Shown here: piece by piece, positions 7,467 to 54,939 of the stretch
Layout: each line of letters begins with the position of its first letter
Position numbering within the stretch: the stretch's first letter is position 1
Source of the DNA: Balamuthia mandrillaris
Lineage: Eukaryota
Reading direction: 5' to 3'
Length of the DNA stretch: 64,000 nucleotides
NCBI GenBank assembly: GCA_031835245.2
Contig: JAVKOQ020000043.1
Coordinates: forward strand, 62,001-126,000
Program-made: the position numbers and the translations under genes
The notes under the pieces: generated by a model
The model's input: only the letters and a program-made list of their open reading frames with translations
Told to the model about the DNA's origin: nothing
Databases searched by the model: none

Positions 7467-7581
7467 ATGCAGAGCCCCAAAAAGAGAAAGAGAATTGCAG
7501 AAGAAGAGGAAGACAATAATATCTCCTGGTGGAGTCCCATTCTTCACCTTTATTGACGGTCCCAATTGTTTAACGTTCTTT

Positions 7582-7625
<44 letters not shown>

Positions 7626-30153: not shown

Positions 30154-31566
30154 CGGAAAAGAGAGAGTTACCGCAAGAGACGATTGGATCGAGCCTCAAT
30201 TATTGAGGAGAAGTAGAAGAATATACAAAGGAGAGTTGGAGTGTACAAAAAAAAGATGGAAAGTAGTAGATGCGTGTTTTTTACAGTGGGCTTATTTTGG
30301 TTTGTTTGGGTGATGGTTTTACGAGGATAGTGATGCTTAGATCTTTAAGGTTGTATGTAGGCGCATAGCATTCTACGTTGGGGAGGCAGTTTTAAAAAAA
30401 ATAATAAGATGATGATGATCAAACGAGTAGTAGTGTCGTCGATAAGACAATAGAGCAACTATTGCTACCAAACAAAAAAATAGGGGAAAAAAGGAGGGGA
30501 ATTTTAAAAAAATAATATCAACGGGTGATGATGATGATTATCGAGAGATGATTTTGATTTTTAGCAACAAGTATTTACCGCATCATTGTGAAAGGATGGA
30601 GTTGTTGTTGATGAGAACAATGGTTGGAGAAAAGGAGGGGGGGAAAAAAAATAACGTTGCTGGGGGAAAAAAAAAAACGAAAGTTCTATTTAGAACTGCA
30701 TTTTGGCGGCGCGCGTACGAGACGAGTAAAGCTTGTATTTTAGGTGTGTCTTTTTTTCTCGTTGTGGTCGTCAAAGTGAAAAATACAAAAAAAAAAATAA
30801 AAGGGGGGGAAGAGGAAGAAGAAAGTTTTTTCGTTTCGGGAGGGACGTGTCACATAGCAGCAGAAAACTCAAGCGAAAGGTGTAATTCGCGGAAATGAAC
30901 CGTCGGAGTTCGAAAGGGCCAATGGCGGGGGGACACGTAAGCGCACCGCTTTTCCTAACTTGTTTGGTTTTCGTTCGGTTTGCTATTCTTTTTCTGGAAA
31001 ATTTCTGATATTACCCTCAAGCACAGGCGGTCTCCGATCGGAATAGATTAGATTAACGTCTGAATTATCATTGGATGAAATAATATTAAATGTCTTGCTC
31101 CGCTTTATTTCAGTTCTCTGTGTTAGCCTTCACCAAGCCATTGTTTTTCTTATGATAACATTGGTGCGGTAGAGAGGGCCAGCGTTTATAGATACCTGTA
31201 AAGTTATTTTTTCGCTTCCACCCATTCTTTTGGAGTGTTGTTATGGTAACGCTCACCTAAATTTTATTTGGGCTCATACTCTTGCAACAGTAAAATTGTC
31301 TATGTAATTTATTGCAAATATTGCAGGGAAGCTCGCTCTCCCCCCTCTTCCTGTGGCTGGACACAGAGGCGAGGGAGACGAGCCAGGACATGAGATCGCA
31401 ATATATTACGTCTGTTACAACAGATAACTATTTTTTTCGTGGTGTTGTTTTGGTTTGTTCGAACAAAGCAAAAAAAAAAAGCTTTTGCTTTACCCCTCTT
31501 CGCCCCTGCGCAGAAGAAAACAAAACTTAAACAAATCACACACACCACTCAAAAAAAAAAACAAAG

Positions 31567-31836
31567 ATGGCCACCACCAAGAAAGATTTGGAACAAGGCG
31601 TTAGCAAGAGACGCGAGGTCTTCAAGCACGAAGAGGCCGATGACGACGACCAAGCCCTTCTCGACGACCACACCAAGAAGGAAGACAAGACCATGCCTGG
31701 CGGCGAGAGGTTGAAGCAGGAGGAGAAGAAGGCCGAAAAGTTTGGAGAGGCAGTGTTTGCGCACGCAAAGAAGTTCAACACTCCCGCTCCCGATGACGAC
31801 GACATCCAACGCGACGAAAACGAGTGGAACGACTAA
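31567..31836 (+). CDS. Small (89 aa) highly charged hydrophilic protein, function unknown
   Basis: ATG preceded by an A-rich leader (AAAAAAAACAAAG ATG); strongly GC3-biased codons in an AT-rich context; K/D/E-rich with no Cys. Confidence 0.65.
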   Translation: MATTKKDLEQGVSKRREVFKHEEADDDDQALLDDHTKKEDKTMPGGERLKQEEKKAEKFGEAVFAHAKKFNTPAPDDDDIQRDENEWND

Positions 31837-32057
31837 GCAAACAAAAAAAAAAGTTGCCGCCGCTGTTTTTTTTCATCCAGCAATTATTTGTACCTTTTTT
31901 TTTTCACTCATTTGCGAGCGATCATTTTGTCCTATAGAAGAAGACCTCACCCAAAACAGTGTTAGTTTGTTTACCGACAGAAACAATATAGCAATACCAA
32001 TAAATAATAAAAAAAGAATAATGTACATTGACAAACTTTTCTTTATGCCTAAATGGT

Positions 32058-34002
32058 TTACAAATGCTCATCTCCAATGGCGTCCGAAGCTTCACCCCAC
32101 TCTCCCTCCTTGGCACTCGTCGGCACTTTTGTCTTGCGAAGAGGAGAATGGTGTTGCTGTATGCCGGTGCCAAATGATGCAGTATCCGGTGAGCTCACTC
32201 TCCGCCTGTCCAAAGCGGTTGTTGCGGGGGTTGTTGGAGAAGAAGTGGACCGAGCCGTCTGTGAACCTTCTTCCCTGTTTCCTTCTTCGTTTGCTTCGTG
32301 AACAGGAGGAAGAACGAGCTTCTTGGCAGGATTCTTTGTCAACTGCTTGCGTTTCTTTGGGAGGTAAGAAGTTCTAAGAGCAGATGATGGCGAACCTCGA
32401 GCTCCTTTGACAACGCCCAGCACTTCTTCCTCATCCTCTTCCCCTTCTTCTTCTTCATTCTCTTCATCATCCTCATGCAAGGCAGCCAGAGATGAGGCAC
32501 TACCAACCACTCCATAGGATCCTCGTCTACGCGGCGCAAACTTTTGTCTAAGATTGACCAACGCATCCACTACAGACGTTCGTCGCGAGGAAGCACCGCT
32601 CTTGTATTCCGTAACCTCTTCTTTCTCCTCTCCCTCCTCCTTCTCCTCCTCCTTCTCCTTCTCCTTCTCCTTCTCCATGGCCCTTGGTAGTCTAGGTCGT
32701 TTGCCTAGTCTTGCTTCACCTTCTGCTCCTTCCTCCATATCAGCTTCTTCTGCGTCAGGATAACGTGGCAACCTCCCCAGAGAAGCAACGGACAAGCGAG
32801 GAGTGTTCAGGCGGAACATCGGCATACTTGGTCGCCTATTGCGGTTATGAGGACCGCCTTTTCCAGGGCCAGTACCAGTCACAGTATTCGGCATGAGATT
32901 GCCATCCACATCCAACATCAAGGCAAGGTCCGTGTGGCCAAAGAGCTGAAGGTGGTGATGAATGTCCCTCTCCTCGATGCCATCATAGAGAGGATTGCCT
33001 CTCACTTCAGGTTCAGAGTAAAGAGGATTAGTCTGAGTGACATCTCTGGGTCCCGTGGTGGTCAATGGCGGCACCGCTGTGGTCCTTCTCTTCACTCGAT
33101 GCTCGTGGATGCGCCGTTTGAAGGAGAACTTGGAGTGCTGACGGGAGGAAGAGGAGGCGCCAGCCACTTCCCTGTCTTTTGTTGCTCGTTTGGCGTCCTC
33201 CTCTAGCTTAGTTTTGGTCTCGGGAGATTGGAACGCGGCCGCCTCTTGGGCAACAACTTCCTCGCCATGTGCGCCCAGCTCCTTATTGATGGACTTGCGG
33301 TTGTAGTGCGGCACCATCAGTCGTTTGATTTCCACATCGCCAGTCTCCTCCTCGTCGATGCAAAATGTAAATGTGAGGAAGCGACGTTGGGCGTGGTAGA
33401 GGCAAGGCAACAAGGTCAGCAGGAAATAGCCTATCATAACGCAGACGTGGATCCAGAGGACGAGCACACAGAAGAAGCCACCTCCGTCGTCACTCTCCTT
33501 CTCCACAATGAACACCACTAATAGTATGAAGAGGACGACCGGAGCGGAGAGCAAGCACCACAACTCCGTCCAGAAGGACCAACGCACTCGCAAGAAGCTC
33601 GGTTTGTGATGACAGTTAAGCGTGTAGGCGATGTACCAGCCATGCCCCCACTTGATGTAGTTGTAAGGGCGGAAGAAGCAGAGCAACAGCATGTAGGTGG
33701 CGTAGATGAGGAAGAGCAAGACCACTGCTGCAATAGGCACCTGCCAGAGCAGGCCGACAACTGCTCCTGTAAGGAACTTGCGCAGCAGTACCAGCAGATA
33801 GTACCAGTTGAAGTGTTGTTGGTAGTCAGCAAAGAAGGCGCCGTAGAGGTGACGCACCAAACGGGCGTGATGCTCCAACCATTTGGGAGTGCTGTGCAAC
33901 ACGAATCGCCAAAACAAGAGTATACAAATTGGTACCGCTATCACGAACAGTGCTTGTTTCGCCGATTATCATAAAGAAACAATGTTGGTGATATGGAACA
34001 AA

Positions 34003-34040
<38 letters not shown>

Positions 34041-37000
34041 GACGAGTAAAGAGGAACGGGAGAGAAGAAAGAATACATACGGTAATGAAACCCAGAACAA
34101 TCGACAGCGTTGGCACAGACCAACCTCCGCATAGGAGATAGATAGTAAGACAAGCGTTGAGAACAGCTGGTAGATAGGCAACATCGCCCAACCTCAACAG
34201 CGCAGAACACAGCAACACAATGCACTTCTCTAAAAAGGTGGAAGTCCAGTAGTAGCTATTGGGAGGAGGCGATCTACCTCCTCAACATCAGCCCATTTCC
34301 TCATCTGTTCCAACTCTCGTTTAAGATCTTTCTTGGTGCGAATACTGCGCTTGCTCTCAGGATCGTGCGTGTGGCTTTGTTCTCGTTCTCTCATCGTGAC
34401 ATCTAATTCGCCGTGACTTCCTTGAGCCTCTTTCTGATCTTCCATAGCGAGGTAGAGAGAATAAAGGTTGTCCAACATTTTGTCGCCCTCTTGTCTGTTG
34501 GGCTGATGCATCTGGGAACTGATGCCATCGCCATAGCTCTCGCCATAGCAGCAGCAAAGGAAGAGAGAGAGCAATTTGAGCACCACTAGCACCAAGCATA
34601 TGAGCAGCACCAACGCCACTGCCACAAGACACAAGTAGAACACAAATGAGGTGATGAGAGAGTGCAACTTCACTGTAACTTCCCTGCTGTACTCCTCCGC
34701 TCCATAGTTGTCTGCTTCATCATCGTCATTTCCACCGCCAATGTGAACGACATCATCTGGTTCTCTGTGCCGATGGTCGTTGTCAGGCCATCGAAGATAG
34801 TCCGCTCGTTCCACAAGTAGCTCTGTGCCTCTCTTCGCCTCTATCCAGTCCCAAGGCAACGGCAGGTGGAACAACGTCCAGGAGTAACACTGACTCCACC
34901 CTAACACGTTCCAACAGCCGAGCTCATCCCAGCCGGGACTCAGCATGGCGCTCAGCGCGATGAACTGCATATAGTCCACTAGAAAGAAGCCGTCATTGGC
35001 GTAAACGCCTCCTCTCCAACCGGTCACAAGGGCGGCGGTTGCGATAATCATTCCTCCAATGCAGAATGTGCCTTCTCCTGTTTGGGAAGGAGGATAGACG
35101 CTAAGCGTGATGGAGGTGGCGCCAAAGTTTTGATTCATCAAGTAGGTGCTTTCCTCCAAACGAAGTTCTATTCCTGGAAGACTGCTCCATTGCAACGTTG
35201 GACTGAAAGTTCTCTATTCAAGGCCATCGTCCGATGCTGATGACGAAGGCAAGGAGTTGTCCAAAGAAGAAGAGGAATCTGGGAGCTCTTTGGGATTAGG
35301 CGGCACAATTTTCAGAGAGAAGCGGAACTGGCTTTGCTGTCCAGGAGCGAGAGTTGGGAACGAGGCCACAACAGTGCGATTAGGAGGTAGACTGGCATTC
35401 TGAGAAATGTAGAAATGCGCGGGCGCCACACCAGACAAGTGAAGAAGGCTTCCATCCACGAGAGTGACGCCTGTCGGGAAATGCTCCTCAAAGACCACGT
35501 CGAAAGCAGTGCTGTCACTCGCTTGGTCATGGAAGATGGTCACGATGAGATCTATGACATCATTGTATTTCAGAGTGGCGTTTGTGCTGAGCTGTTGGGA
35601 GAGGGAGAGAATGGGTTCATGCACGACCAGCTCTGGGGCAGCCGCCGAGAGCGGCTCCAGGAGAGTAGGTAGTGCTGGAAAGGATGTGATCCGGGTTGAA
35701 CACAAGTGTTGTTTGTGGAGAGAGGCGAACTTCTGGTTGGTGTTGGTGGCCGATTCCCAGTCTCCTGATTGAAGGACCCGGGCCAAGCAATTGGAAGTTG
35801 CTCATCCAGAAGCATCGGTTGGAAATACCTTTTCCGTGATAGTTAAGAGATGCGTTGTTGACGACGAATACAGTGTATTCCACCTCCAACCAATCTGGAG
35901 AGTTGTTGTCTCTGTTCCAGTTCCACACCGTACCAAAGTCGAACACTAACAACCGTTCTTTGTGCTGAATAACATTGTCGTCGAGGTTTTGGTTGGGTAC
36001 ACCAGCTCTATCTTCTTCTTCCGTCTCCCCTGTCACTGTTTCATTGGTGAGCAAAACGCGCGCGAGGTGCTTCACTTGCGAGCAATGAACAGTGATCCAA
36101 CTATTCTGTTCGCTCGCACTCTCTTCAGCAGGGGATGAACAGAGGATGTCATCGGAGGAGGTGGCGATGGTATATGCCAAGAAAACATCCTCTGGAAGAC
36201 TCAGCGCAGGGTCTAACAAAGCAGCCACCGCAACCACCGCTGAGGTACGGCCCTCAGGTAGCGTCACTCTCATACGATAGTTCACCTGCTCTCCAAATGT
36301 GACTCCCCAACTGTCCACTGCTGCTCCTTCTTCCTCTTTCAACGTTGTGCCATCCACAAAGAGAGAGAGGAAAGAGTCCGAAATGGCGATGATGCTGGAT
36401 TTTTCTTCAGCGATGCCTGGCTTGCCTCCGGTCGCTATCTCCATGACGTGCTCCGCGGTGAAGAAGTCAGCCTCCACCAGGACGAAGGAGTTGGAGGGGC
36501 TTGAGTCCCACGTCAACAAAGCCCGTTGAGATACGTTGCTCGAAGGCTCCACTTGATCGGCAAGTCGTATCGAAAAGTGAATGGAAGCCACTTGTCCCAC
36601 TGGCAGAACGGGAATAGTGATCAACATCTGGGGATGAATGGTGCTCTCGTCCTCTTGCTCTCTACGAGTCGTATTTGCTGAAGTGGTTGCCCTGGAGGTG
36701 AAGCTAAGGAAGGTGATACTTGGGTTAAGGGCGCTGGCGGGTTCCACACGAACACTGTCTGGCAGGATGACGCCTTGGCGATAATCCACAAAGTTGTGGA
36801 GAAGAACATCAAAGGCAGCAGAAGTACTTTCCTCTTGAACGTGTCCAACTCGATAGACGTAATTGACCATGTCACCAGCGTCACCCACCGACAAATCTTT
36901 GGAGTTGTCGAGGATAACCAACTGAGGCTCCACGATTCGTACCTGCAAAGAGCGCTGCTTCATGTTGAGAGTAAAGTCGAGAGTGCTGCGAATCGTGATG

Positions 37001-40000
37001 ACAACGCCATCCTTGTTCTCTGGAACATCAGGTACAATGGCGGTGACGCGAACGATGATAAAGTCCTGCTCGTCCGTCACTCCATCTTGGGAATGTTGAT
37101 AGCTGCCAAAGTCAAAAATGGCCGTGTCATTGTGGCCGTCTCCATTGGCGTCCGAGTGCACAGCATAGTCACCAACTGAAAGCAAAGGAGAGGTAATGGC
37201 TTGTCCGAGAGAGACCACACGGGAAGAAAGAACGCTCAGTTTGCCCCCTGCCAATGGATTGGTTTCCACGGTCAAGACTAATTTCTCGGTGGCTTTACGT
37301 AGAAGCTTTTCTGGCAGCTTCACCAAGGCCTGGAAGGTTACAGCTTCTCCCACGTTCAGTAGTGCCTCCGCTATGGATGCTGGTGTTTCCTGGATAGAAG
37401 TGCCGACGATTTCAAAGCTGGATAATTGTGGCAAGTTCAGCAGAAGCTCCGCGTCATTCGAGAGCAGGTTGTAGAGTCTTCCTCCCTTGGGCATGCTGTT
37501 AAACTGCAGCGAGGCATAGTTGTGGATGCCTACTCCAGGATGAACTGTGGTCGAAACAGCACAAGTAAAATTGATGGCGATGGATTCTTCTTGTTTTGGC
37601 AAGAACGGGAAGTGCACACGAATGTAATTGTCGTTCACGCCATTGCCAGTCACAATGCTAAAAGGAGAGGTATTTCCAGAAGCAGCCAAGGAAGAAGTGA
37701 CCATAACAGAGCCAGCCTTGAGCGTGAGGGCAGTATCAGGTATTCTGTCCTCAATGACTAGGTTATAGGCAGGAGAGGCAGAGAGGAGGGGATCATGATG
37801 AAGGAGAAGCCTGTAAAAGATGTCGTTGGTGCCTTGCGGATTTACATAGCCAGACTTGACAAGGGTGATGATAGGCTCCACGATTATGGTTCGGTAGACA
37901 GCAACGTTGGAGGCTCTCGCTGGAGCATCAGGAATGATGACTATAGCGATGTCAGTCAGGTCAGCTGCTTCTGATGCTGGTACTGCCGTTTCATCGTAAT
38001 CGTAGCTCAACATGGAACTTGCTCTCAACGGCGTGTCTCTGGAGTTGGTCGTGGCGAGATTGGGTACCATCATCCATACCCGAAGCTGCAGGTCGTCGTT
38101 GGCGTCCACCACATTATCCGGTTGGTTAATGCAAGTGCCGAACGCGAATCGAATGCCATCAAAGAAACCGTCTCCGTCTTGATCAACCAATACCGTCTCG
38201 TTTACACCCTCTTGTACTCGAACAGAGCCACCCAACAAGATCAAACTGCCGGAAAGTACTTGCAATTTCCCAGCTGCATCGCCATCAAAAGTGTCAGCAA
38301 TTCCATTGACGTAAACAGCACAGTCATTGAGAGTGCCTTCGGGAAGCGTTGCAGTGACGGTGAAGGATACCGATTGTCCAATCGTCAAACCGTCGGCAGA
38401 AGGAAGACCGTCGCTTTGGGCTTGAGCGTCAACGTCCCGCTTCAGAGTAATGAGAGGGCGTGGCAGTTGCAGCTCGGTGGTGCCAGAGACAGTGGAGAAT
38501 TTTCTTGAGGGTAGCTGCTCGCCATCCGCAAAGCTAGAAGTGCTGCTAAAGTAACGCAGGGTGGCTCGTCCGGTTCGCAGAATGGTTTCAATTTGAGCGC
38601 TCTCCTCCATTTGCACCTGGTATTTCACAAAGAGGCGTTGATGTCGTGATGGTTCAGCGAGATAAGGGTTGGGAAAGTTGTCAATTCTAACGAGGAGGAT
38701 AGAGTCGCTATCGGCCACCACTTCCACATGACCAGGATACTCCTCCACCTTTCCATCGGTGGTTGTACCATTGGAGAAAGAAGGCAAGGAGCCATCGTTG
38801 GTGTAGACCACGGATGTACTGTCAGCCATCACTTTCATGCTAGGATGCAGCACATCCATGACTTCCAATCTGTATGCTGCGGAGCTGCTGGGGCGTAGGT
38901 CCATCACGTGAGCCACTTCCAATACATAACCTATAATATCGCCGGCATCCACTGTAGGTCGTTCTTCTTTGGTGCTTCTTTCGTTGTTGACGCTGCTCGC
39001 GAGGACTTGTTGGTACCTAAAGAGTTGAAGAGAAGGTTCCGCGACTTGCACGTATGGATTGGTGTTCATTGGGTACTCGATGAACTCTCCAGCCTCACCA
39101 TATGTAAATCCAAAGAGAAGGCTGGGCCGCAGCTCTGTTCCGGGTTGGTTGGGTGGCTCGTCCAAGATAACAGCTCTCACAATGATGCGTATCTGTTGTG
39201 ATTGGAGCTGATTATTGGGATGTGCTGCAAAGATAGCATCCCCGAAGTCAAACTTGAACGCATCCTCTATTCCGTCTCCTCCGCTGCTGTCCACAGCCAT
39301 CGATGCACCGTCTCCATGTCGAACAGGACCAGAAGTAGTTACTCTAGCAGACATTCTAGCGACGGCAGAGAGCAGCTTCATCTTTCCCAGCGATGGGTTC
39401 TCTACTCGCGAGGAGTCTCCGCTGGGAAGGAAGAGTCTCGCTGTGAGGTTGTGGGTGGTACCCTCCGTTAAGTTAATGTTGATGTGGAAGGTAGCCACTT
39501 CGCCAACGTTCATTAAGGACAAGGGTCCCGTTTCTGACAGTGAGGAGGAGACCAGGTCGAAGCTGATGGAAGGGCTGTTGATGGAGAAGACGAGGATGGC
39601 AGGTTGAACGGTATTCACTCGTGGAATAGGAATGAAATTACTGCTGTCTCCACCTACTGGCAGGGTTTGGGTCTCGTTCGGGGGACTGCTGTAGAAAGTG
39701 AGGAGCGGTTGAGTGGGTATGATACCGCTAGCCGGAGCACTATCCAACACAACGGTGCTATAAGTGATGACCACTTCTTCACTGTCTAACGGGTAGACAG
39801 GAATACGCAGCTTCAATCCGCCTCCATCTTCGTTTGACAGAAGAACATAGTTAGGGTAGGAGCTTGTCACGCTGTCTTCGATCAACCCCAAGTGGACATG
39901 AAGAGGGTCTACCAGTTCCACCTTGTAGGCAGCGGAGGTAGAAGTCTGCGATTGATGCTTGATGCGAACAGTGAAGTTAATGGTATCGCCAGCATCACCC

Positions 40001-43000
40001 TTCTTTTTGTCACTGGTGTAGCTGATGCTGAGCTTAGGTTCCACAATGGCAACATGAGAAGAGGTTTCCTTTCGTAAGCCAGTACCAGTGGCCAACGTGG
40101 CCTTGCTCTCCAAAGCCAATCCGTTCTGGTTGATTAGGTCACTCTCCGCCACCGCCATCACAATCAACTTTACGGTATCACCTGCATCGTTCGTATTGTC
40201 TGGGCGATTGACCAAAGTGCCCAACGAGAACAACACGCTGTCCTGGATGCCATCTCCGTCAGCATCTCCAACCTGTGATTGAGGTGAGGGAGTTGTAGGG
40301 GTCGTTGTGATGCTGGCACCCAACACCACTCCGGCGTGGATCAAACGAAGTTTGCCAGGAATGTTGCTCATGCTGTTGGTCAAAACGTCAGTTACTTGCA
40401 GATCGGGGGTAGTTCCTTCGGGAAGGACCACTGTAATCTCGAAAGTCACGATCTCTCCGATATTCACCACCTCGCCGCTAGTCTCCGTAAGAGAAGTGTT
40501 GACGACCCTGTGGAAGTAGGTGATTGGGGGAGTGCTGACGGAAAGGGAAGAGGAGGAGAGGATGCGTTTTCTTGGGCTGATGCTATGGTGGGTAACAGTG
40601 TCTACGCTGGGGCTGCTATCATAGCTCAGGGAGGTGGAGGTAGAGAAGCCCATATCAGTATAAGCAGATTCTGATATAACGCAATCATAGCTGATGGTGC
40701 AAAGTCCGGAGGTAAACGTTGAGATATGTGTCTCCACATGTGAGTCTCCAGCAGCATTGCCGCTCACAACGGTAGAAGAGCTACAGGAGAGCTGGACGCT
40801 CCCAACCACCAACACCAACTGACTCGAGAGGAGAGGTTGCTGGAATCGGACGTTGTAGGCGGTAGAAGTGGAGGCCGTCGTGTGCCTAAAGGCTGCTGTA
40901 AATCTAATCGCATCGCCAGCATCTCCCACCGTTACGTTGCTCTGGTAGTTGGTGATCTCTAAGAGAGGTTCCCTCAATGAGATACCTACCGAGCTTTGCT
41001 TCAGAGAGGCAGCACGGATGGTGTCATGCGTCATGGAAGCAGGGCTAGTGAGAGAGATACCGGCCATGTTGGCGGCTACATCCAAGACGATGGCTCGAAG
41101 CACCACTATCACGTTGTCAGCAGAGCTAAGTACATTGTCAAAGTGATTCACGATAGTGCCGAAACGGAAGGTAACTTGGTCTAGAACGCCATCCGTGTTG
41201 CTGTCAGTGGTGAAGATAGTGACAGTGGCAGGAACAGCAGAGGCGGTATCCAAAGAGCCACGAACGTTATCTCCGTACTCAACCGAAGCGGCTATAAAAG
41301 CAAGCTTTCCAGGAGAGATGGGCAAGGAGTCGGTCACCACCAAGCCAGTGGTGGTGCCTTCTGGCAGACCAATGACTGTTTGGAAGGTCACAAGCTCCCC
41401 AATGTTGAGGAAGGAGCCTGGCGTCTCGCTAAGCGAAGTGTTGCGAAGGGACCTGAGGATGGTAGCAGCTGGTGTGCTGAATGTTCTTGTCGTAGATAAG
41501 AGAGTAGAGACTCTGCCTATACCCGTTGTTGTTGCTTGGGGAGCAGATCTGTACTCCAACAACATGCGAGAGCTGAGGGAGGAGTCTATTTTGGCGACGT
41601 TGGACACCTGGCAATCGAATGTGACCACCAGAGTAGCAGAAGGGAGAAAGCTGCCTAGTTGAACGCGAACATCCCCGTTAGCAGAGCTAGCACTGTTAAC
41701 TGTAGCAGCAGTCACTCCAATGCCAGCGATGGTAATAGTAGCAGGTAAAAGCGTCAGCGCATCATCCAGTTGGTCGCTCAGCACGAGATCATAGGCTGTG
41801 GAAGATGAACCCGAATGAGAGATCGTGGTGGTGAAGCGTATCAGATCACCACTGTCGCCGCTGCTCTTACTGGCGGTGAAGCTCATAGCCAGCAACGGCT
41901 CCGCTACTGACAAGAGTTCCGTCACTGGTCCCACCGTCTGCATGGAAATTGTGGTGGCTCCAAACGCAGTATTGTCATAGGTAACAGCAGCGTTGCTCTT
42001 CAGACTCACCCCTACGATGTTGGTGGCGTGGTCAAGAACGAGAGCTTGAATGGAGAAGACCAGCTGGCTGCCCTGAAGATTTGCATCTTCCTGAACATCA
42101 ATGCTATTCAGGATAGAAGCGAAGGCAAAGACAACAGTGTCAAAGATTCCATCCCCGTTGCTGTCGCTGTTAGTTTGGGTCATGCCGTTGAGAGTCAGTT
42201 TGTTCCCTTTAGAAGCTAGCTCGGCGGAGAGTAGGCGTAATGCGCCAGTGTTGGTCGACGTTGCGTTTGGCAGAGTGTAGGTAAAAGCAAGCCGGTTGGT
42301 GGTACCCGGTGGGCAGCGAATAGTCACGTTGAACCGAACGGTCTCTCCCACGTTAACGATGTTGCCACTGGTCTCGGCTAGATCCGAGTACACCATTTGG
42401 TTGCTGACGAGAGTAGGGGCGTTCATGCGAAAGGCATACATGGAAGAGATAGAGGCTGCTCTTCCAGTTGCAAACAGACCGCTGCCACTGGTAGTTTCTT
42501 GCTGGTTGGGGCTGGAATCCCATCGCATGGTGGCTTGATTGTCCACAAGAGAACCAACAACAGCTGCGTTGGTGGCCATCGCCTCATACATCAACTCCAA
42601 TGCGCTTTGTTGCAATAAGAAAGTGCTGATATTGATTTGAACATCCTGATCATTGGCTCCATTTCCCTTCTGAATGGTAACGGGGGCGTTGTTCTGGTTG
42701 AGCTTCACTCTCACCGAACCGGGCACAAGACGAACATCGCCAGCAGTGCTTATGTTATCCACAAGTTGAAGGTCATAGGCAGCAGCAGAACTGGTGGCGG
42801 CTGAATGAGCCAGAGAGAGGGTGTAGAGAATGACGTCTCCAGCTTCAACGTTGGCACTTCGATTGCCGACCTTGTTGAGGGTGAGGTTGGGTTCTACCAC
42901 CTCCATCAAGACCGAGCGTGAGATGAGTCTTGTACCAGAGGGAAAGGAGACAACAAGCGTGTCCTTCAAGCCACGTTCATTGATGTTTGCTGTGTCATCT

Positions 43001-46000
43001 TCCACCAACGCTACAGTTTCCAGCTCCAGTTGCACTTGGGCCTGATTGACGAATGGCTCGAGCTGAATGAGCAAGCGGTAGGTAGAGCTCTGGCTGCTTA
43101 GCACACGCACGTTAGGGTCTTGGTTGATGATTCTCCAGTTCAACAAACGGAGCTTGCCCATGCCCGCCGTTCCATCCGTGAACGTCCAGTCAAGCGAGAT
43201 CTCGTTGGTGCCTTTGGGGAACAAAAGGACGGCACGAGTGGTGACCGTCTCGCCCACTGCCAGATCCTCCACGCTAGTGCTCTTGCCTTTATCCGCGGTT
43301 GTGGCGGCGATGGAGGTGCTCGCGATGGCCATAGATAGTACGGCAGGCTCCTTGGTTGAGAAGCTGGCTGATGAGCTGGTGGTATAGCCCCTGGCCCCTG
43401 TAGTGCAAGTGGCGGTAGTGCAGCTCTTGTGTGAACCAGAAATGGTGTTGGAGATGAGAGCTCCTACGATAGTGCTCTGGGCTACCTTGGCGTCGTATTG
43501 GAGAGTGTACACGCCAGGTGCAGCCATGTCAGCAGTCACCTGTAGTGTGTTGGAGGCAGCGTTATATGTGATGGCCTGTCCTTGAAGAGGAGGAGTGACA
43601 AGAACGCTGCCCTCCACTAACAAGAGGGAACGGTGAAGCCCGTCTGTGATGACGAGGGAGGAAGCTGCCATAACGCTTGCCACAGAAATGGTCGCCGTGT
43701 AACGAACAGACTCCCCAGCCTCCGGAGGAGAAGTGGTGCGGTTGTGAGCTTTAGTAAGCACCACAACAGGTTCAATGATGATGTACGTGATGTCGTTGGC
43801 AGTGGTATCAGTGGCAGTACCAAGCGTTGCGCCGGTACCAAGGACGCGAGAGGTAACCCTGCCCGTCACAGCAGGAATCACAAAACCTTCCTTGTTGGCG
43901 GTGACATCGGTCACTCGGGCCTTAAAACGAAGAGTGATGAGATCCGCTGTGTTTTGAACGTTGTCAGGGAGATTTGTGATAGAAGGAAAGTTCATGGCGA
44001 ATGTAGTGGTGGATGTCTGTTGGATGGTGAACTCGTTGCCGCCAATGAGAGCTCCGTAGGAAACGAGCTCTATGCTGCTGCCCGCCACATAAGCCAGAGT
44101 ATTGCCACCGCTGGTGGTAGGTAATATGGTCTCTACGAGGAGGCTAGCTCTGCCCTCGGGTACGCGCACCACTACTTGGTAGGTGATCTCCTCTCCGATG
44201 GTGACCCTCGGGTCGGTGGTGGTACTAAGTGAGGTGGCATAGCCATCGGTGGTGATGGTTGGGCTTCGTAAGGTCACAACCACGCTCTTGGAGCCAGAGT
44301 AAGAGCGAGCCTTGTTGGCAGTGCGGTCTCTAGCGGATCGCCATGACAGGCTGGCAAGGTTGGTTATCTTGGAGGACACTTGAACATCATTCACGATGTT
44401 GGCCTTGAGAACCACGGTTACTGTTTCGCCCAGCACGATCTTGTCCAGTTCGAGAGAAAGGATGTTGTTGGTGACGCTGGCCGCTGCTGTCGCGGAGGTA
44501 GAAGTCACACTCAAGCTGCCAGGAACATAAGCGAGAGAGGTTGGCAAAGGGTCGGAGAGTACGATGCCAAAAGCGGCTGAGTTGGAGGCAGTCTGGTGAG
44601 TGATGGTGATGGTAAAGATCAGCTCATCGCCGGCATCCTTGTTGCTGGTGGCGCTGGCTGCATGGGCGATGTTCAGAAGGGGCTCTACAATCTCTGTGTT
44701 GAGACTCTTGGTCCATGTTCCAGCAGAACCTTCCGTCACGGCAGCAAAGAGAAGGGAAGCGGTGGTACTGAGCCCTACAGCAGCTTTGTTGCTGGTAACG
44801 TCTGGAACAAACGTATCCACTTGAAAAACTAAAGTGTTGTTGCTGCCAAGTATGTTGCATGTACCAAACGAAAAACGTGCCAAGTCGTTCATTCCATCTG
44901 AGTTGGTGTCGGAGAAGACAGCAACACCAGCGCTGTTTGAGGCGAGTGTTATGTCTGCTCCTTTGGAAATAAGGCTAGCAGCGGTGACTTGCAGCTTGCC
45001 TGGAGCAAGGGGCATTTTGGCCAGGAAGCCGCAGCTGGAGGCCACGCCCTTGGGAAAAGTAGCAGTGCCGCGGAAGGAAGCATCCTCCCCTACTCCTAAA
45101 TCGGGCGTGATGGAGGTCAGTTGTGTTAGGCTAGTCTCGGGAAGAGAGGTGGAGTAGAGCTCCCAGTCCAAGACCGGGTATTTGAGGGTGAGCGAGCTAG
45201 AATCGAAGAGGGCGAGGTTGAGGCTGGAAATGTAGTTCCTGCCGCCCTCCATGGCAGCATAGCTGAGCAGAGTGGCTGAGGACTCTACGGTACTTCCTAT
45301 CTCAGCAGAGCTGCTGTCTACCTCCAGATAGTAGGTGATGAGAATGATGTTCTTTCCGGCTCTGCTTGAGTCTGCCGAGTCGTAGTTGGAAACTGCGGCA
45401 AGAGAAACAGAGGAGTCTGTCAATTGTATACCCGCATTGCTGAATAGGTTGCCTGAGTAGGGCACAGGAACGCGATCGCCAGTACTCACGCACAAACCGA
45501 GGCCGCTCGCAGGAACCTTCATTCCAATTGGAATTACATCCTTTACAGCCACATCAAAGGCTTGACTGCTGCCCGTGTTCTCCAACAGGATGACAAACTT
45601 GAGGACGACTCCTCCCTCAACCTCTTTCGCTCTACTGTTGACAACGGAGGAGGAAGCGGCCAAGAGCTCGCTGGTAAGAGTAGTACCACTGAGACGCGGG
45701 CAAGAAGAAGTGGAGGTGTCCACGGGAAAGGTGGGGATGGAATCAAAGATTGTGTCAGTCTGGGAACTGGCCACGATGCCTTTTTGGACGTTAAGATAGG
45801 GTTGACGGATCCATATGCCACGAGAGCTTACTCCAGCGTAGGTGCCTTCCTGACTGAAACCTGAACAGCAAAGGAATGAAGTTATAAAGAGAAATGAGAC
45901 ACACAAGAGAGAGTTCAGATAGGGTAGCTTACCTACAGCAGAGAACGCATAATATATGCCTCTATAAGGTGCATCGTCTACGGTGACGGTGTACAGAATG

Positions 46001-48293
46001 TCTATTTTGGTGGTCACACTTTGTGGCTCACTGTGCAGGCCATAGTCTAGCCGTAGGGTGTCAGCATCATTGGAGAAGATTGGAATGTTAGGGTTAGTGG
46101 CCACCGTTAAGTAAGTGTCAGAGGGACCCCGTTGTGCCGTCCCAGCAGCAGGAAGAGCGGCCGTTGGGTTGGCATTGAATGAGGTGATGGGTTCCACGCG
46201 AGGAGGGTTGTACAGCGTGAATTTGAGCGGCTCGTAATCGGTCGAAGGCAGACTGTACTCCATTCGGAAGGTGAGCTTGCTGCCGGCTCCCACGAGGAGC
46301 TGGTTGCACGGCAGCGGAGAGCATACCTGCCCATCAATGGCGTAGAGGGTGAATGTCATCGAAGGAGGAGTAATGGCCACCAAGGCTTGGGCAGAGTCAG
46401 AGTCTGGTTGCGGCTGATTAAGCTGCAAAGGCACCACGGCGTTGACGACCTTGTGGTCTACGATCTGAGCGCGAAGCACCTTCATGTGCAAAAGGAAACA
46501 AAGAAGGGAGAAGGGAGAGTAAGTGATAGCCACACAGTCAGACTGGAGTTTTCCTTGTTCTTACTTACCGTGTTACTGTTCAGTGTTTGTCCTTGACTAA
46601 CCGCCTTTTGAGGGCGAGAGCCTTGCACGAAATAGTCCTCCAGAACGACCGTCCTGTACTTTACTTGCAAGGAGGTGATCGGCCCTCTCAACGTGCCATC
46701 TCCCGAGGGCACCACGCCCAACGTCTGGAAGGTGAGCTGTGTGCTCCCGTCCATCGGTTGCTTGGTGGTATCCACCACCAGGTCCCTCCCCTCCAAGAAG
46801 CTGGCCGAGTAGGTGCCCCGCGTGAGCGTGGGTGCATAGGTTCGGTCCAAGACCTGTCCATCCTCTATCTTGCTTTGCAGCACCATGTTGTGAAAGCTAA
46901 AGTAGTCCGAGACCTGCACGGTGAGAGCGTGCTCCAAGGTGTCTTTGGCCGAGACGCCGTTGTTGCCGTGATCTTTACCGGCCACCAGCGCCACGTCCTC
47001 CCAGATCAGGATGGAGTGCAGGACTAGGGTGTCACTCAGGCTTATCGATGAAGGTGCAGAAGAGGAAGAAGAAGAGGAGGGAGCCGTTTCGTCGAGGTAG
47101 CCGCTCACCGTCACTACTTGCGCTTGAGTGCGCGAGTTGCCCGTTTGCACGCTCAACACAGGAGCACCGACGCTGTCCACTTGTGGCACGTAGAACCTCA
47201 CTTCGACTTCCACCTCGTTGCCCGCGGCAGCGCCGCCGCTCACCGCATCGTAGAGGAGGGCAAGGGTTCGGTTGGAGGCGGAGGGAAGGGTGACCTGGGA
47301 GGGGGTTGGCCCCTTGGTGGGCGTCACGCTGAGCACGGCGAAGGCGGTGGGCACGGAGGAGGAGAGGACCACGTGGCGCAGGGTGGAGCCTTTGCTGACA
47401 TCGAGCTTGATGGTGCCGACCACCGGAAAGGAGGGTCCCGTTGCTGTCTTTTCTTTGTTGAACTCGAACTCGGCCTTTTTTTTGTTGGTTGTAACGTTCA
47501 TAGAGAGGAGAGAGGATAGGAGAGACAGCAACTTTTAGCAGAGAAGGAGAGGAGATAGGAGCGGACAGCCACAGAGAATGAAGAGGGAGAGAGGAATAGG
47601 GAGGAGAGCAACCTTGAAAACCGAAACGATGACCGCTCGGGCTCCCAACGACCATTCGGCAGGGCGCGGGCTTGGAGTGGGCACGACCGAAGGGTCCTCC
47701 AAGGGGTTGATCTTGGAATCCCGACCTCCCCAAAAGCCAGCCCTGAGATAAAGCGGCAGCTCTGCACCTTGCTTGGCCGACTCGGGCACCGTCACGATCA
47801 ACTTGGCCTGCACCTTCAAGTCCTGCGGCTTGAGGACAGGAAAGGGCAGCGACACGGACAACCACAGGTCTCCATGCCGGCCGCAAACCATCAGGTCCGC
47901 TTCAGCGCTGTCAGCGTATTTGTGGGCTTTGCAGCTCTCTTCGATCACTGTGGTGGTGCTGTCGACAGGGTTGACGATGACCTGCGGGGCGGGAAAGGTG
48001 TGGAGAGTGTGCTCAACGGTGGAGAGAGGGAGCCCAAAGATGGTGAGTGACTGGTAGGCGAGAAGGGGCTGGCCGTTGGGCCCGGCGTGGAGGAAGACGT
48101 CGAGAAAAGGATAGTATCCGCCCTGGTCCCCTGTGTTGGAGAGCAAGAGGTCGACGATGAGAGTGTCACCGGGACGGTACACGTTGTTGCTGGCGGTTTC
48201 AGAGAGCGAGAGTTCTAACGAAGGAAACGGAGCTCCTGCTTTTACCACAAATATTCATTTGCTTCGGTCAATCCAAAGGAGAGAGAGAAAGAG

Positions 48294-48334
<41 letters not shown>

Positions 48335-48427
48335 GAATAGGAGACCTGCCGCACGAAGCGCACAACTACATGAGAAGAGAAGGTACAGCGCAAAAATTGA
48401 TTTTTCCGTGAGGATGAACGAGGCCAT
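32058..48427 (-). CDS. Giant (~5,000 aa) cell-surface protein: signal peptide, bacterial fimbrial/isopeptide-D2 (DUF11-like) Ig-fold repeats, TRP-like multi-TM domain, cytoplasmic tail with NPxY motifs
   Basis: Signal-peptide exon from ATG 48427 (MASFILTEKSIFALYLLFSCSCALRAA). ORFs 47535-48248, 46482-47531, 35617-46533, 35214-35786, 34230-35195 and 32058-33944 read as one co-linear protein. Ten A+B repeat pairs (GExVxFxxxxxLPEG / EPxL...DAGDxIxYT). TM region has DYMQFIALSAML and YGAFFADY..WYYLLVLLRKFL. Three frame interruptions near the 3' end are described in the findings. Confidence 0.8.
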
Positions 48428-48740: not shown

Positions 48741-50559
48741 TCAGTGTGCTCTGAGCTCCTCTTCCTCGTCCTCCTCCTCCTCGCCCTCAATGGAGTCGTT
48801 GGTGAGGGTGGTGAGCGGAGTCCAGGTGCTTCGTTTGCGGTCCCGGAGTTTGCTCCGTTTGCGCATGACGGCATACGTGATCCACACTCCTGCGAACATC
48901 AGCACTAACAATATCACCACCGCTGTCAAAACTGTAGGGAGTGGGAAAAAAAAAGTGGGATCAGAGCAACAGCCGAGATAGAAGAGGAGAGAGGCAATAA
49001 GCATGAGAAGAGAGTTGACAAGAGTGGACAACGGAGGGCAGCGAGAAGAAAGAACGGGATCGACGATAGAAGAGAGAGAACGTACAAACTAAAAGAACGT
49101 GAGAGACAAGTGTCCGCTGTTCTGCTATGACCTCTTGCTCGGCTTCCTTGTAAGAAGGACATTCGGGAGTGCCAGCATACATAAAGTAATCGTTCATGGA
49201 TACTGGATACAATTGTTGATGCGCTCTAAAGCGATGAGGATCAGTTATGTATCCCCTGTTCATAGGTGATAGTTTTACGTTAGACCAATGTTGAGATTGT
49301 TACTGTATAACGTACTTTTCTTCATCGCCAGAGGAAGGTTTTTTGTACTGAGCACCAGAAATTTGAACGCTCAACTTCTTGCGTGCCACCCCTGAGAACA
49401 AGTACCTCTCGCAAAAGTCCACAAACTCCTCCACATCCAGATTACTAAACTGCTTCAGTTGCTTTTGCACTCTGTCAAACACGTACAGCTGCGACTCAAT
49501 CTCTGCGAAATAGGCGTTCGTCTGTTCTGCCAAAGTTCGAGGCTTGCTTTCCTCTTTCTTCAGAGATTCCAGAGCGGCCACGTACTCGTTAAAGCTGGTC
49601 TGCTGGAAGTTGCGAGACAAGAGTTCCGGCTTCCAAACTTCCTGCAAGAAGCTCTCAACGCGAAGGTCAAGGTGATGGGGATCCTTCACATCGGACTGAA
49701 TGAGGATGGCGAAGCCTCCAACAAAGAGCTTGATAGGCAGTTGAAAGGCCCAAACGATGTATCCGAGCTGCTCTTTTGTGCGCAGCTGGTCAAAAGCCTT
49801 CTGTCCAAGGATTGTCTCTAATAGTTCCACGTAGAGAGAGTGGCGAACATAGGGATTGTTGAACTTGGTGGGAATGTTTTGAGAAGAGGGTACCCTCTTT
49901 TCTTCTTCGAGAAGGAAGGTAGAAGTTGTGTTTTCAGATCTTTCACCACTGCTGTGGTGCGTACTATCTTGGAAGAAGGCAGGCAACGAGAATATGTCGG
50001 TCTGGTAGTAGTTCAACACGACAGAGTTTTGTTCTTCGTTGAACTTGACTTTCTCCTGGAAGAGGTAGTGCTTGCCCGGATGCAGCTTCACCACTCGCTG
50101 AGTGCCCAAAGTGCGAGCCTGGGACGGAGATACTGGCTTAGAGCCACGGAACCACTTGTTCTCGATGGCGTCATGGATGATGTCTTGCAAAAAGTTGGAG
50201 CTTTTGATGTTGCCATTGACCAAGCACTCCACTTTCATCCTCCGGAAGAGAGAGGGCACAAAGCGCTCGCTAAACTCTTGGAAGAAGCGATTCTTTGCAT
50301 CACTATCTCTTTCTTTGGGGAAAGCAGCAATGATCTCTTCAGTGGTGTAGGATGGGTCATGAAGAAGAGAATAGAAAAGGGAGATAGCACTTCGGTAAGG
50401 TGCTTGGTACATGAGATCCTGATAGTCTGATAGTGTGATCTCGTATATCATGTCAAACTGCTCTCGTTTGCTCTCGAATTGTTGCGTGGAGAAGATAGCA
50501 AGGAGCTTATCCAGAAAGACGTTCAACTTGTCGCTGTAGCCTTGAACCGTGAGCTTGGG

Positions 50560-50595
<36 letters not shown>

Positions 50596-52068
50596 TTGAA
50601 GTGAGGCTTTTGCCCTAGATATCATGAAATGAGTTGTTAATCAAACCTTAAGTCCTTGGTGAATGGTACCAAGAGAGAAGTCGATTCCAGCCAAGTTAGC
50701 ATCATAACTGAAATTTTTGGCCTGGTAATGAACCATTGAAAGGAAGATCTGGCTCATGATGAACGACTCGGGAGTCTCTGACACCACTGGTGTTTTGAAC
50801 AAGAAGCGCATGTCCGCTTTGGGTTGCTTGAACTTAGTTTCATGTTTGTGCCACGCCGTTATCATTTCAGAGTTGTAAAGCTGGAACGGATAGCCGTTCT
50901 GTTGTTATTCACCCATGAATAAAAATGTTTAATGAGTAATAGACCAACGAAATAAAACAATAAAAGTGACTAAACGAAAGACTAAACCAAAAGCAAAAGA
51001 ATGGTGCACTTGAAGTTGGAAAGGGTACCGATTTCTGAGATAACATGGAAAGATTTTCAGGGATGAAGGGATTGGGTTGTGGAAGAAACAGGCTCTTGTC
51101 AGGTGTCCCAGGCTCTACCCATTCTTGAAGGGTCGACGCAGGGATGGGGGTCACTTTATAGGCAGTACCGTACCATTTTTCTTCCTGGTCCGTTTTGCCT
51201 TCAAACTTTTTGCTGGTGATATGTAACCTTTTTTTTTTTTTGATACAAACTGAGAAGATAAGCATGACGAAAAGGAACAACAAACACTTTACCTCATGTT
51301 GTGAGGTTTAAGAAGCAGAAGCAATTCGTGAATGATAGTGCTGTTGAAGTGTTGCGGAACTCCTGCTTTCAAACAATCCTCAAGTTCGAACTCCTGTTTT
51401 GTTTAATGAATGTTAGGACAGCAAAGGTGTAATAATTGGCCAAGTGTAAGCGGACCTGAAGTCGGTCCGCAAGAGAGGAAACCAAGTTGTAGGGATTTTC
51501 TTTGTTTTTGAAAGAGAACTCCATTTCGGCGAGCTGCTTCATCTGTAATGAAAGAAAAGAAACTAGTTAGTACAACAACAAAAGGACAACAGATAACAAA
51601 AAAACAAAAAAGAAACAACAAAACAAAATACCTCATCAAAGGTTGTGCTCTTTACCCCTTCCGCTTCAATGAGCTGAATGTATTGGAATATTATTTTGAC
51701 AATATCGTGAACATGTTCTGTTTGGTCAAATGACTAGTGTGAGCCAAAAGAAAAAAAAAATAGCGGAACAAACAAAGTACCTAATCCTTCTTCAGTAAGA
51801 GAAATGCTCACAGCAAAGAGAGAATAGTCCATTCCAGACTCGCCCATACCAGCGCTGAGTTGATCTGCCCAGCCTTTTTCCTTGAGAAGGGCCAAAGGAC
51901 TGCCAGCTCCCTCATAGCCCAATAGATGGGAGATATATGCTGAAGGAGCCTCTTTGTAACGAGACATAAGTGCTGGCATTGGGAAAAACATTTCCATTCG
52001 TTTCATGTTCGTTACAGGTACAATAGCTAGCTCCAACTGTATACATTTTGAGCCAATTAGTCAACAAC

Positions 52069-54722: not shown

Positions 54723-54939
54723 TCCTCTCTCTTTTTTGTTGTGCTTGTTTCATCGAGTCTCATCTCCTGGCTCTTATCCTGTCTCCTGTCCACCCACACA
54801 GCACGCGAATAAATTTCGTTGAAAAGAGGGAGCAAAAATGACGTAAATTTCGGTACCGAAGGTTTTGCTTCTCTCATGTCCTCTCTCACGTCCATGAAAC
54901 GGTAAAACAAAAAAATAGTGAGAGAGAGAGCGAAAGAAG
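54723..54939. promoter_or_regulatory. Putative bidirectional promoter between the reductase and the oxalate-CoA ligase
   Basis: 217 bp between two divergent ATGs; contains TGACGTAA (54839-54846, CRE/bZIP-like). Function inferred from geometry only. Confidence 0.4.

What the first reader, a model, noticed from the sequence alone, without database searches (positions are those of the whole stretch)
32058..48427. ~5,000-aa chimeric receptor: bacterial fimbrial/isopeptide adhesin ectodomain fused to a eukaryotic TRP-like multi-pass domain
Seen: signal peptide, an N-terminal region (NTGDQGGYYPFLD, TGPSFP, FYVP, QVSDYFSF, PAAGT..GPSDT, IDILYTVTV, ENTGSSQAFD, GKNIILITY, YAAMEGGRNY), ten ~300-aa A+B repeat pairs, a multi-TM region and a long cytoplasmic tail. 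About 10 kb of the ectodomain is one exon in an otherwise intron-dense genome. From memory, the N-terminal motif series and repeats match bacterial isopeptide-forming-domain fimbrial/DUF11 surface proteins, and the TM motifs (YMQFIALSAML; YGAFF.DY...W...LLRK) match the fungal/protist TRP-like (Flc/Pkd2-type) domain. Inference: a horizontally acquired bacterial adhesin was grafted onto a eukaryotic membrane module, giving a polycystin- or adhesion-GPCR-like adhesion or mechanosensing receptor.
Basis: partly seen in the sequence, partly recalled or inferred. Interest (0 to 1): 0.82.

Follow-up and report, generated by a model that had tools for sequence, protein, structure and literature searches.

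The report
Amoeba receptor with bacterial adhesin stalk
A gene of the brain-infecting amoeba Balamuthia, broken in this assembly but open in reads from other samples, joins a long bacterial-type adhesin stalk to a eukaryotic multi-pass membrane domain, and likely encodes a surface adhesion receptor of bacterial ancestry that current annotation splits into pieces.

Summary
A six-exon minus-strand gene of Balamuthia mandrillaris (about 5,280 codons) encodes a likely signal peptide, an N-terminal region, ten A and eleven B Ig-like repeats (DUF11/CLIPPER, CnaA fold), a PF06011 (Flc/Pkd2-like) membrane domain and a cytoplasmic tail. The ectodomain is colinear with giant bacterial adhesins at 24-28% identity.

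Other samples read open there, and NCBI splits the gene.

The fusion is older than Balamuthia. Two environmental eukaryotes carry a B repeat upstream of the same membrane domain, and Capsaspora has the same N-terminal module. The isopeptide Lys-Asp-Asn triad is near-invariant in bacteria but survives in only 3 of 21 amoebal domains. The tail has two tandem NPxY motifs, echoed as NPxF in an orthologue.

Best reading: an adhesion or capture receptor linked to the actin cortex, working like Dictyostelium SadA/SibA. It has no GAIN/GPS, REJ or PLAT domain, so it is neither an adhesion GPCR nor a polycystin-1. Function, donor and channel activity are untested.

The parts
48346..48427 (-). Exon 1, likely signal peptide
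   Evidence: Hydrophobic core (11-residue mean 2.08) at the same position as the Capsaspora leader (2.63); inferred, no signal-peptide predictor run. NCBI's model starts elsewhere and joins the end of this exon.
47613..48238 (-). Exon 2, N-terminal region
   Evidence: GT-AG ends, NCBI model, homology to bacterial adhesins and Capsaspora
46569..47474 (-). Exon 3, N-terminal region, likely divergent Ig-like domains
   Evidence: ESM Atlas neighbours include DUF11 clusters, but recognition 2146 is below the tool's threshold, so weak
45933..46479 (-). Exon 4, N-terminal region
34081..45860 (-). Exon 5 (11.8 kb): repeat stalk plus first part of the membrane domain
   Evidence: one DNA contig of run X2 spans 34045-36297 without a break
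35170..45627 (-). Stalk: B0 followed by ten A+B pairs, both CnaA-like beta-sandwiches
43414..43782 (-). Repeat B2, full Lys-Asp-Asn triad
42490..42906 (-). Repeat B3, full Lys-Asp-Asn triad; modelled, matches CLIPPER 9IFR
37486..37887 (-). Repeat B8, full Lys-Asp-Asn triad
33390..35072 (-). PF06011-like membrane domain, about nine hydrophobic helices, interrupted by intron 5
33954..34080 (-). Intron 5, spliced in a contig of run X1
   Evidence: joint (one contig, depth 4.4, 20 letters on the short side)
32058..33389 (-). Cytoplasmic tail, about 440 aa, low-complexity acidic stretches, no N-glycosylation sequons
32985..33029 (-). Two tandem NPxY motifs, 11 residues apart
   Evidence: tandem in 0 of 20,000 shuffles; orthologue P0036 has tandem NPxF (1 of 20,000). 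Pattern chosen after seeing it.
33950..35650 (-). Four frame breaks in the window copy: frameshift near 35646, in-frame stop at 35214-35216, frameshift near 34276, out-of-frame acceptor of intron 5

Best explanation
This gene joins a bacterial-type DUF11/CLIPPER repeat ectodomain to a PF06011-like multi-pass membrane domain with two NPxY motifs in its tail, and likely encodes a cell-surface adhesion or prey-capture receptor whose ectodomain likely came from bacteria in an old transfer. Shown by calls: the domain content and order, the open frame in other samples, transcription along the gene, the same repeat-to-membrane junction in a second eukaryote, and loss of most isopeptide triads. Inferred mechanism: the signal peptide sends about 4,300 residues outside the cell. 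Twenty-one Ig-like domains form a stalk that holds the conserved N-terminal region away from the membrane, where it would bind substrate or prey. The last B domain sits on the membrane domain, where Pkd2/Flc proteins have their Ig-like lipid-binding domain. The NPxY pair would recruit talin or another PTB/FERM adaptor, coupling binding to actin or to uptake. The window copy is a broken allele or carries assembly errors.
For: Fusion: X2 DNA contig open across the junction; the stop is absent in 4 of 4 runs (3 samples); the frameshift near 34276 is absent in X2 and X3 (one sample; X1 and X5 do not cover it); the frameshift near 35646 is absent in X2 and X3, and the X1 contig ends at that place. 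Downstream of the first break, 17 of 21 differences to X2 are synonymous. L081 has a B repeat (E 3e-10) directly before the first helix (38% identity); its product P0036 matches across two of the breaks. P0029 is one ORF with a B repeat (E 2e-11), FN3-like, Big_9-like and PF06011 parts. P0042 and P0039 put Big_9/cadherin repeats on the same membrane domain. Bacterial ancestry: 79 loci from many phyla, colinear over the whole ectodomain, against 4 eukaryotes found. Eukaryotic neighbours and introns argue against contamination. Fold: pLDDT 91.8; CLIPPER Z 13.0, rmsd 2.1, 118 aligned. Precedent: SadA is a nine-helix adhesion receptor (PMC2173991); SibA binds talin through two NPXY motifs (PMC9453864).
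Against: No read or contig spans the gene; RNA depth is about 1x or less in raw reads, and X1 is only guessed to be RNA. No ligand-binding domain was identified and the N-terminal region was not folded. NPxY is absent from P0029, P0037, P0039, P0042 and P0041, lies about 120 residues from the last helix, and is also a common endocytosis signal (own knowledge). Four disabling changes against only four other missense changes in 1.7 kb fit neither neutral decay nor random error well. The tree names no donor and has no root. PF06011 is below its cutoff on the window fragment. Upstream of the first break 7 of 12 differences are missense.
Confidence: 0.6

Rival explanations
1. Tethered mechanosensitive calcium channel: the stalk is a lever that gates a Pkd2-like membrane domain, and adhesion is secondary.
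For: Fission yeast Pkd2 passed calcium on membrane stretch in vesicles (PMC9727806, abstract); its nine-helix domain is predicted to contact an Ig-like domain (bioRxiv 10.1101/2022.08.11.503631, passages). The window domain is homologous to PF06011. This reading is compatible with the best explanation.
Against: Homology to the fungal proteins is distant, no channel residues were identified, and the fungal lipid-binding ML domain is absent.
Confidence: 0.2
2. Passive surface coat or endocytic cargo receptor: the protein forms a protease-resistant glycocalyx or cyst-coat filament, and the NPxY motifs only drive its recycling.
For: 28 N-glycosylation sequons in the ectodomain. The Capsaspora relative ends in mucin-like Ser/Ala repeats and has no membrane domain in its partial model. 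CLIPPER domains confer protease resistance (PMC12617251, passages).
Against: A conserved nine-helix domain and a 440-residue tail are more than an anchor needs. The N-terminal region is kept colinear with bacterial adhesins. Most triads that give protease resistance are lost.
Confidence: 0.12
3. In the window's strain the gene is truly split: a secreted ectodomain of about 4,100 residues is made and the membrane part is decaying or expressed apart.
For: All four breaks lie in the 3' 1.7 kb, none in the upstream 10 kb; two are substitutions, which are less typical of assembly error; NCBI annotates separate genes.
Against: Three other samples are open where covered; differences are mostly synonymous; both frameshifts lie in simple repeats. 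This could hold for one strain but not for the species.
Confidence: 0.3
4. The ectodomain is an ancient eukaryotic inheritance, or came by two separate transfers, not one bacterial transfer.
For: Balamuthia and Capsaspora are long branches outside all supported bacterial clades; their union carries a long-branch warning; they are only 25% identical.
Against: Eukaryotic copies are very rare (1 named non-Balamuthia hit) and have lost catalytic residues that bacteria keep. The two group at 98 SH-aLRT under a mixture model.
Confidence: 0.3

Closest known systems
Bacterial DUF11/CLIPPER fibrillar adhesins (PF01345, TIGR04226; PDB 9IFR; Costa et al. 2025, PMC12617251)
   Same: Same N-terminal region and alternating A/B repeats, colinear at 24-28% identity; CnaA-like fold.
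   Different: Eukaryotic, intron-containing, anchored by a multi-pass domain; full triad in 3 of 11 B and 0 of 10 A domains, against 202 of 216 bacterial B domains. That survey judged its eukaryotic isopeptide hits likely false positives or contamination.
Fungal Flc/Pkd2 'TRP-like' proteins (PF06011; S. pombe Pkd2)
   Same: Homologous membrane domain of about nine helices, an Ig-like domain just outside it, and a disordered tail.
   Different: About 4,300-residue adhesin ectodomain in place of a 147-residue lipid-binding domain; NPxY pair in the tail; channel activity untested.
Dictyostelium SadA (PMC2173991) and SibA (PMC9453864)
   Same: Amoebozoan surface adhesion proteins. SadA has a signal peptide, an ectodomain and nine predicted helices; SibA has two talin-binding NPXY motifs.
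   Different: No EGF or vWA domain here. Homology to the SadA membrane domain was not tested (no sequence on hand).
Polycystin-1 and adhesion GPCRs
   Same: Very long repeat ectodomain on a multi-pass membrane domain (own knowledge).
   Different: No GAIN/GPS, REJ or PLAT match; the last repeat runs straight into the first helix.
Capsaspora owczarzaki CAOG_08996 (hypothetical, partial model)
   Same: Leader, N-terminal region, B0, A1 and B1 colinear, 25% identity, E 6e-44.
   Different: Continues into Ser/Ala repeats; C-terminus unknown; no triad kept.

Membership tests
DUF11/CLIPPER (PF01345) | Profile score above the curated cutoff | tested here: met
   43.4 bits against 24.6
DUF11/CLIPPER (PF01345) | CnaA-like Ig beta-sandwich | tested here: met
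   Model of A3+B3 pLDDT 91.8; B3 against 9IFR Z 13.0, rmsd 2.1, 118 aligned
Isopeptide-forming fimbrial domain (TIGR04226) | Profile score above cutoff | tested here: met
   117.3 bits against 30
Isopeptide-forming fimbrial domain (TIGR04226) | Lys-Asp-Asn triad in the repeats | tested here: inconclusive
   Complete in 3 of 21 domains (B2, B3, B8); incomplete or unaligned in 18
Isopeptide-forming fimbrial domain (TIGR04226) | Covalent bond actually formed | not testable with these tools
   Needs mass spectrometry or a structure
PF06011 Flc/Pkd2-like | Profile score above cutoff | tested here: inconclusive
   25.8 and 27.5 bits against 28.5 on C-terminal fragments only; intact relatives pass (P0029 37.8, P0042 69.2); the window's N-half matches P0042 at 38%, E 1e-13
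PF06011 Flc/Pkd2-like | About nine membrane helices | tested here: met
   Hydropathy and alignment of the window pieces; model of relative P0042, pLDDT 72.5. Count is approximate.
PF06011 Flc/Pkd2-like | N-terminal ML-like lipid-binding domain of the fungal members | tested here: not met
   No ML hit; a B repeat occupies that position
PF06011 Flc/Pkd2-like | Calcium permeation | not testable with these tools
   Experiment needed
TRP channels / polycystin-2 | Six-helix channel fold with pore loop | tested here: inconclusive
   Fold searches with a relative's model gave only generic helical matches
Polycystin-1 | REJ, GAIN/GPS and PLAT domains | tested here: not met
   No such Pfam hit in any of 8 gene pieces or in the NCBI models
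Adhesion GPCRs | GAIN/GPS next to the membrane | tested here: not met
   No Pfam hit; one cysteine in the last 195 residues before the first helix
Adhesion GPCRs | Seven-helix GPCR fold | tested here: inconclusive
   no significant match
SadA-type receptor | EGF-like repeats in the ectodomain | tested here: not met
   No EGF hit
SadA-type receptor | Homologous nine-helix domain | not tested
   SadA sequence not available from the tools

The most novel reading that the evidence does not exclude
An undescribed family of protist receptors mounts bacterial adhesin stalks (CLIPPER, Big_9, cadherin-like) on the Pkd2-like nine-helix domain. It descends from a bacterial adhesin taken up before amoebae and the relatives of animals split. 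The Balamuthia member is the first eukaryotic protein with spontaneous intramolecular isopeptide bonds, and it couples to talin like an integrin.
Probability: 0.25. Interest if true: 0.88.

Novelty: new variant of a known kind. Interest (0 to 1): 0.7.

Why it matters
Both halves are known families, but I found no report of their fusion or of genuine DUF11/CLIPPER stalks in eukaryotes. The 2025 survey set its eukaryotic hits aside as likely contamination or false positives. An intron-containing, transcribed gene with three intact triads makes 'do eukaryotes make intramolecular isopeptide bonds?' testable with one 130-residue domain. It also shows PF06011 as a platform for interchangeable adhesive ectodomains, a way to ask whether these proteins are channels, receptors or both. 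Finally, it gives a candidate surface antigen for a nearly always fatal pathogen (PMC10471605), hidden in databases as separate hypothetical proteins.

Tried and rejected
Contamination by a bacterial contig: rejected (introns, eukaryotic neighbours, reads from three samples). An intron that skips the stop, or an alternative genetic code: rejected, since all four runs have a sense codon there. A recent, Balamuthia-only transfer: rejected. No whole genome was held, so paralogues were not searched directly; searches showed no second Balamuthia copy. No indexed holder of the stretch was on record as RNA, which is no evidence either way. The fold of the membrane domain, modelled on relative P0042 from 16 rows: Foldseek gave no match at E<=0.001, VIA best Z 8.8 to unrelated helical bundles, sequence profile best E 0.3; none of this shows a new fold. 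Foldseek's top E-values for the repeat pair were integrin alpha legs at TM 0.31-0.38; I read these as generic tandem Ig matches, the best TM (0.49-0.54) being to BspA, AspA and PrgB. Viral route: 1 locus of 98 candidates in IMG/VR, not followed. Trees: the 77-row mixture tree did not finish; only one of two leave-one-out trees finished; no AU test was run. ESM Atlas hits were leads only. Earlier findings: none bore on this gene. The N-terminal region was not folded (both jobs used). L080 begins inside the membrane domain, so its upstream part is unseen.
Full report
The gene. The finding lies on the minus strand. Translation and splice signals give six exons: 48427-48346, 48238-47613, 47474-46569, 46479-45933, 45860-34081 and about 33953-32058, some 5,280 codons in all. 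A homology search identifies the organism: the ectodomain is identical to a 4,237-aa Balamuthia mandrillaris hypothetical protein, and the last exon matches a separate 645-aa one. NCBI therefore splits the locus. Neighbours include a PI3/4-kinase, a diphthamide enzyme, an eIF3-p135-like protein and an RCC1 protein (12 of 18 ORF pieces had a Pfam hit), so the context is a eukaryotic chromosome.

Breaks in the window copy. The frame is interrupted four times between about 35650 and 33950: two frameshifts, an in-frame stop and an out-of-frame acceptor. Laying four public runs on 33850-36300 shows an open frame elsewhere. The stop is absent in all four runs (three samples; 3 of 3 raw RNA reads of X5). 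Both frameshifts are absent in contigs of X2 and X3, which are one sample. At the upstream frameshift the X1 contig ends at the site, and neither it nor the 2 X5 reads there are listed as showing the change; the downstream one is not covered by X1 or X5. The acceptor differs in X2, and an X1 contig splices the intron in frame (depth 4.4, 20 letters on the short side). One X2 contig runs unbroken from the last repeats into the membrane domain. Of 33 differences to X2 (7 of 40 rows dropped: two break sites, one intronic, four not in X2), 17 of 21 downstream of the first break are synonymous, against 5 of 12 upstream. The membrane part has thus been under selection. Whether the window holds a null allele or assembly errors is open. 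Raw RNA reads fall along the whole gene at low depth (91, 148 and 48 reads on 18 kb from 3-5% of each run). No read or contig spans it, so one transcript is inferred, not shown.

Ectodomain. It passes the DUF11, TIGR04226 and TIGR01451 cutoffs. Of 26 hits among 2,396 scored candidates, 25 are non-Balamuthia proteins at 23-28% identity, and those with an organism name are bacterial. The best are colinear from the N-terminus through about 3,700-3,900 residues. A scan of prokaryotic genomes kept 79 loci from 232 relatives, across Chloroflexota, Pseudomonadota, Planctomycetota and others. The N-terminal 770 residues match these at 23-30%. Profiles find 10 A and 11 B domains. A model of pair 3 (95 rows, pLDDT 91.8) has two beta-sandwiches. 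B3 matches pilin domains and CLIPPER 9IFR (Z 13.0, rmsd 2.1, 118 aligned), A3 matches LrpA (Z 12.1), and the pair matches antigen I/II (Z 13.3, 251 aligned). In 216 full bacterial pairs (of 302 hits) Lys, Asp and Asn are 92-99% conserved in both domains. In Balamuthia the triad is complete in B2, B3 and B8 only: 3 of 11 B and 0 of 10 A, against 202 of 216 bacterial B domains. Costa et al. (PMC12617251; passages read, one supplement searched without hits for Balamuthia or Capsaspora) solved the CLIPPER bond and judged their eukaryotic hits likely false.

Membrane domain and tail. The last exon hits PF06011 at E 5.9e-6, just under the cutoff, on part of the domain. A full scan of 1.84 billion representatives gave 19 hits; 13 of the 14 new ones I scanned match PF06011 (three short ones were not scanned). 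The window's first helices match P0042 at 38%, and the pieces between breaks match the orthologue P0036. Hydropathy and alignment suggest about nine helices, as predicted for S. pombe Pkd2 (bioRxiv 10.1101/2022.08.11.503631, passages). A model of P0042's domain (pLDDT 72.5, 16 rows) found no clear solved relative, which is inconclusive. No GAIN/GPS, REJ, PLAT, EGF or ML domain was detected. The tail holds two NPxY motifs 11 residues apart (tandem in 0 of 20,000 shuffles). P0036 has two NPxF motifs 13 apart (1 of 20,000). Five more distant relatives have none. I chose this pattern after seeing it.

The fusion elsewhere. Locus L081, from another eukaryote of unknown lineage (2 loci of 76 candidates), encodes a B repeat directly before the first helix. 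P0029, one N-truncated ORF, has a B repeat, weak FN3 and Big_9 hits and PF06011. P0042 and P0039 carry Big_9/cadherin-like repeats on the same domain. Capsaspora CAOG_08996 shares the leader, N-terminal region, B0, A1 and B1 at 25% identity, then Ser/Ala repeats in a partial model (1 of 3 hits among 7,990 candidates). Eukaryotic homologues are therefore few but not confined to Balamuthia. These searches are word-limited, so the range is a lower bound.

Origin. In trees of the N-terminal region the two named eukaryotes group together (77 rows, FastTree, 99; 26 of those rows, mixture model, SH-aLRT 98), both with a long-branch warning (15 hits dropped as short or duplicate). Without Capsaspora, Balamuthia has no supported home. 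Breadth in bacteria, rarity in eukaryotes and loss of catalytic residues favour a bacterial source (my estimate 0.8). One old transfer is favoured but not shown, and no donor is named.

Mechanism. My best reading is an adhesion or capture receptor: leader, distal binding region, 21-domain stalk, nine-helix anchor and an NPxY-coupled tail. It would work like Dictyostelium SadA, a nine-helix protein needed for adhesion and phagocytosis (PMC2173991, passages), and SibA, which binds talin through two NPXY motifs (PMC9453864, passages). Stretch-gated calcium entry, shown for Pkd2 (PMC9727806, abstract), is a compatible rival. All functional steps are inferred.

Novelty. Ten literature searches and the first two of five parts of a Balamuthia genome paper (PMC10471605; a search of its main text found no 'adhes' or 'fimbri') showed no description of this protein, of CAOG_08996 or of the fusion. 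The library lacks most subscription papers, bioRxiv supplements are closed, and I did not search that paper's supplements. Verdict: real at the species level, a new variant of known kinds, interest 0.7.

Noticed in passing
window 7557-8849 (+): Single long ORF with a ParA/AAA_31-type ATPase (E 9e-19), a family typical of bacteria, plasmids and large viruses; possibly another transferred gene.
   Followed up: partly
window 31549-31839 (+): Short acidic ORF of about 90 aa, convergent with the gene's 3' end, no Pfam hit; far higher contig depth in X1 (175) than the receptor gene.
   Followed up: no
window 53556-54749 (-): Ketopantoate reductase (ApbA + ApbA_C) in one long ORF.
   Followed up: no
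window 48741-50640 (-): Insulysin-like M16 peptidase just upstream on the same strand; two introns confirmed by joints at 48931-49086 and 49254-49315.
   Followed up: no
window 36394-45168 (-): Six A repeats carry a DxDGDG-like acidic loop that could bind calcium; the calcium role is recalled, not tested.
   Followed up: no
proteins P0042, P0039 (JGI): Big_9/cadherin-like repeat ectodomains on the same PF06011 domain; P0050 has ephrin-receptor-like Cys repeats on it. Suggests repeated ectodomain swapping in protists.
   Followed up: partly
P0060 (Capsaspora CAOG_08996): Uncharacterised secreted-looking protein with the bacterial adhesin N-terminal module; no paper names it in the library.
   Followed up: partly
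L082:712-1890: One IMG/VR contig encodes the N-terminal part of the bacterial family at 34% identity to the bacterial query.
   Followed up: no
L080:8299-9581 (-): Two adjacent Rab-like small GTPase ORFs downstream of the orthologue, read by eye.
   Followed up: no
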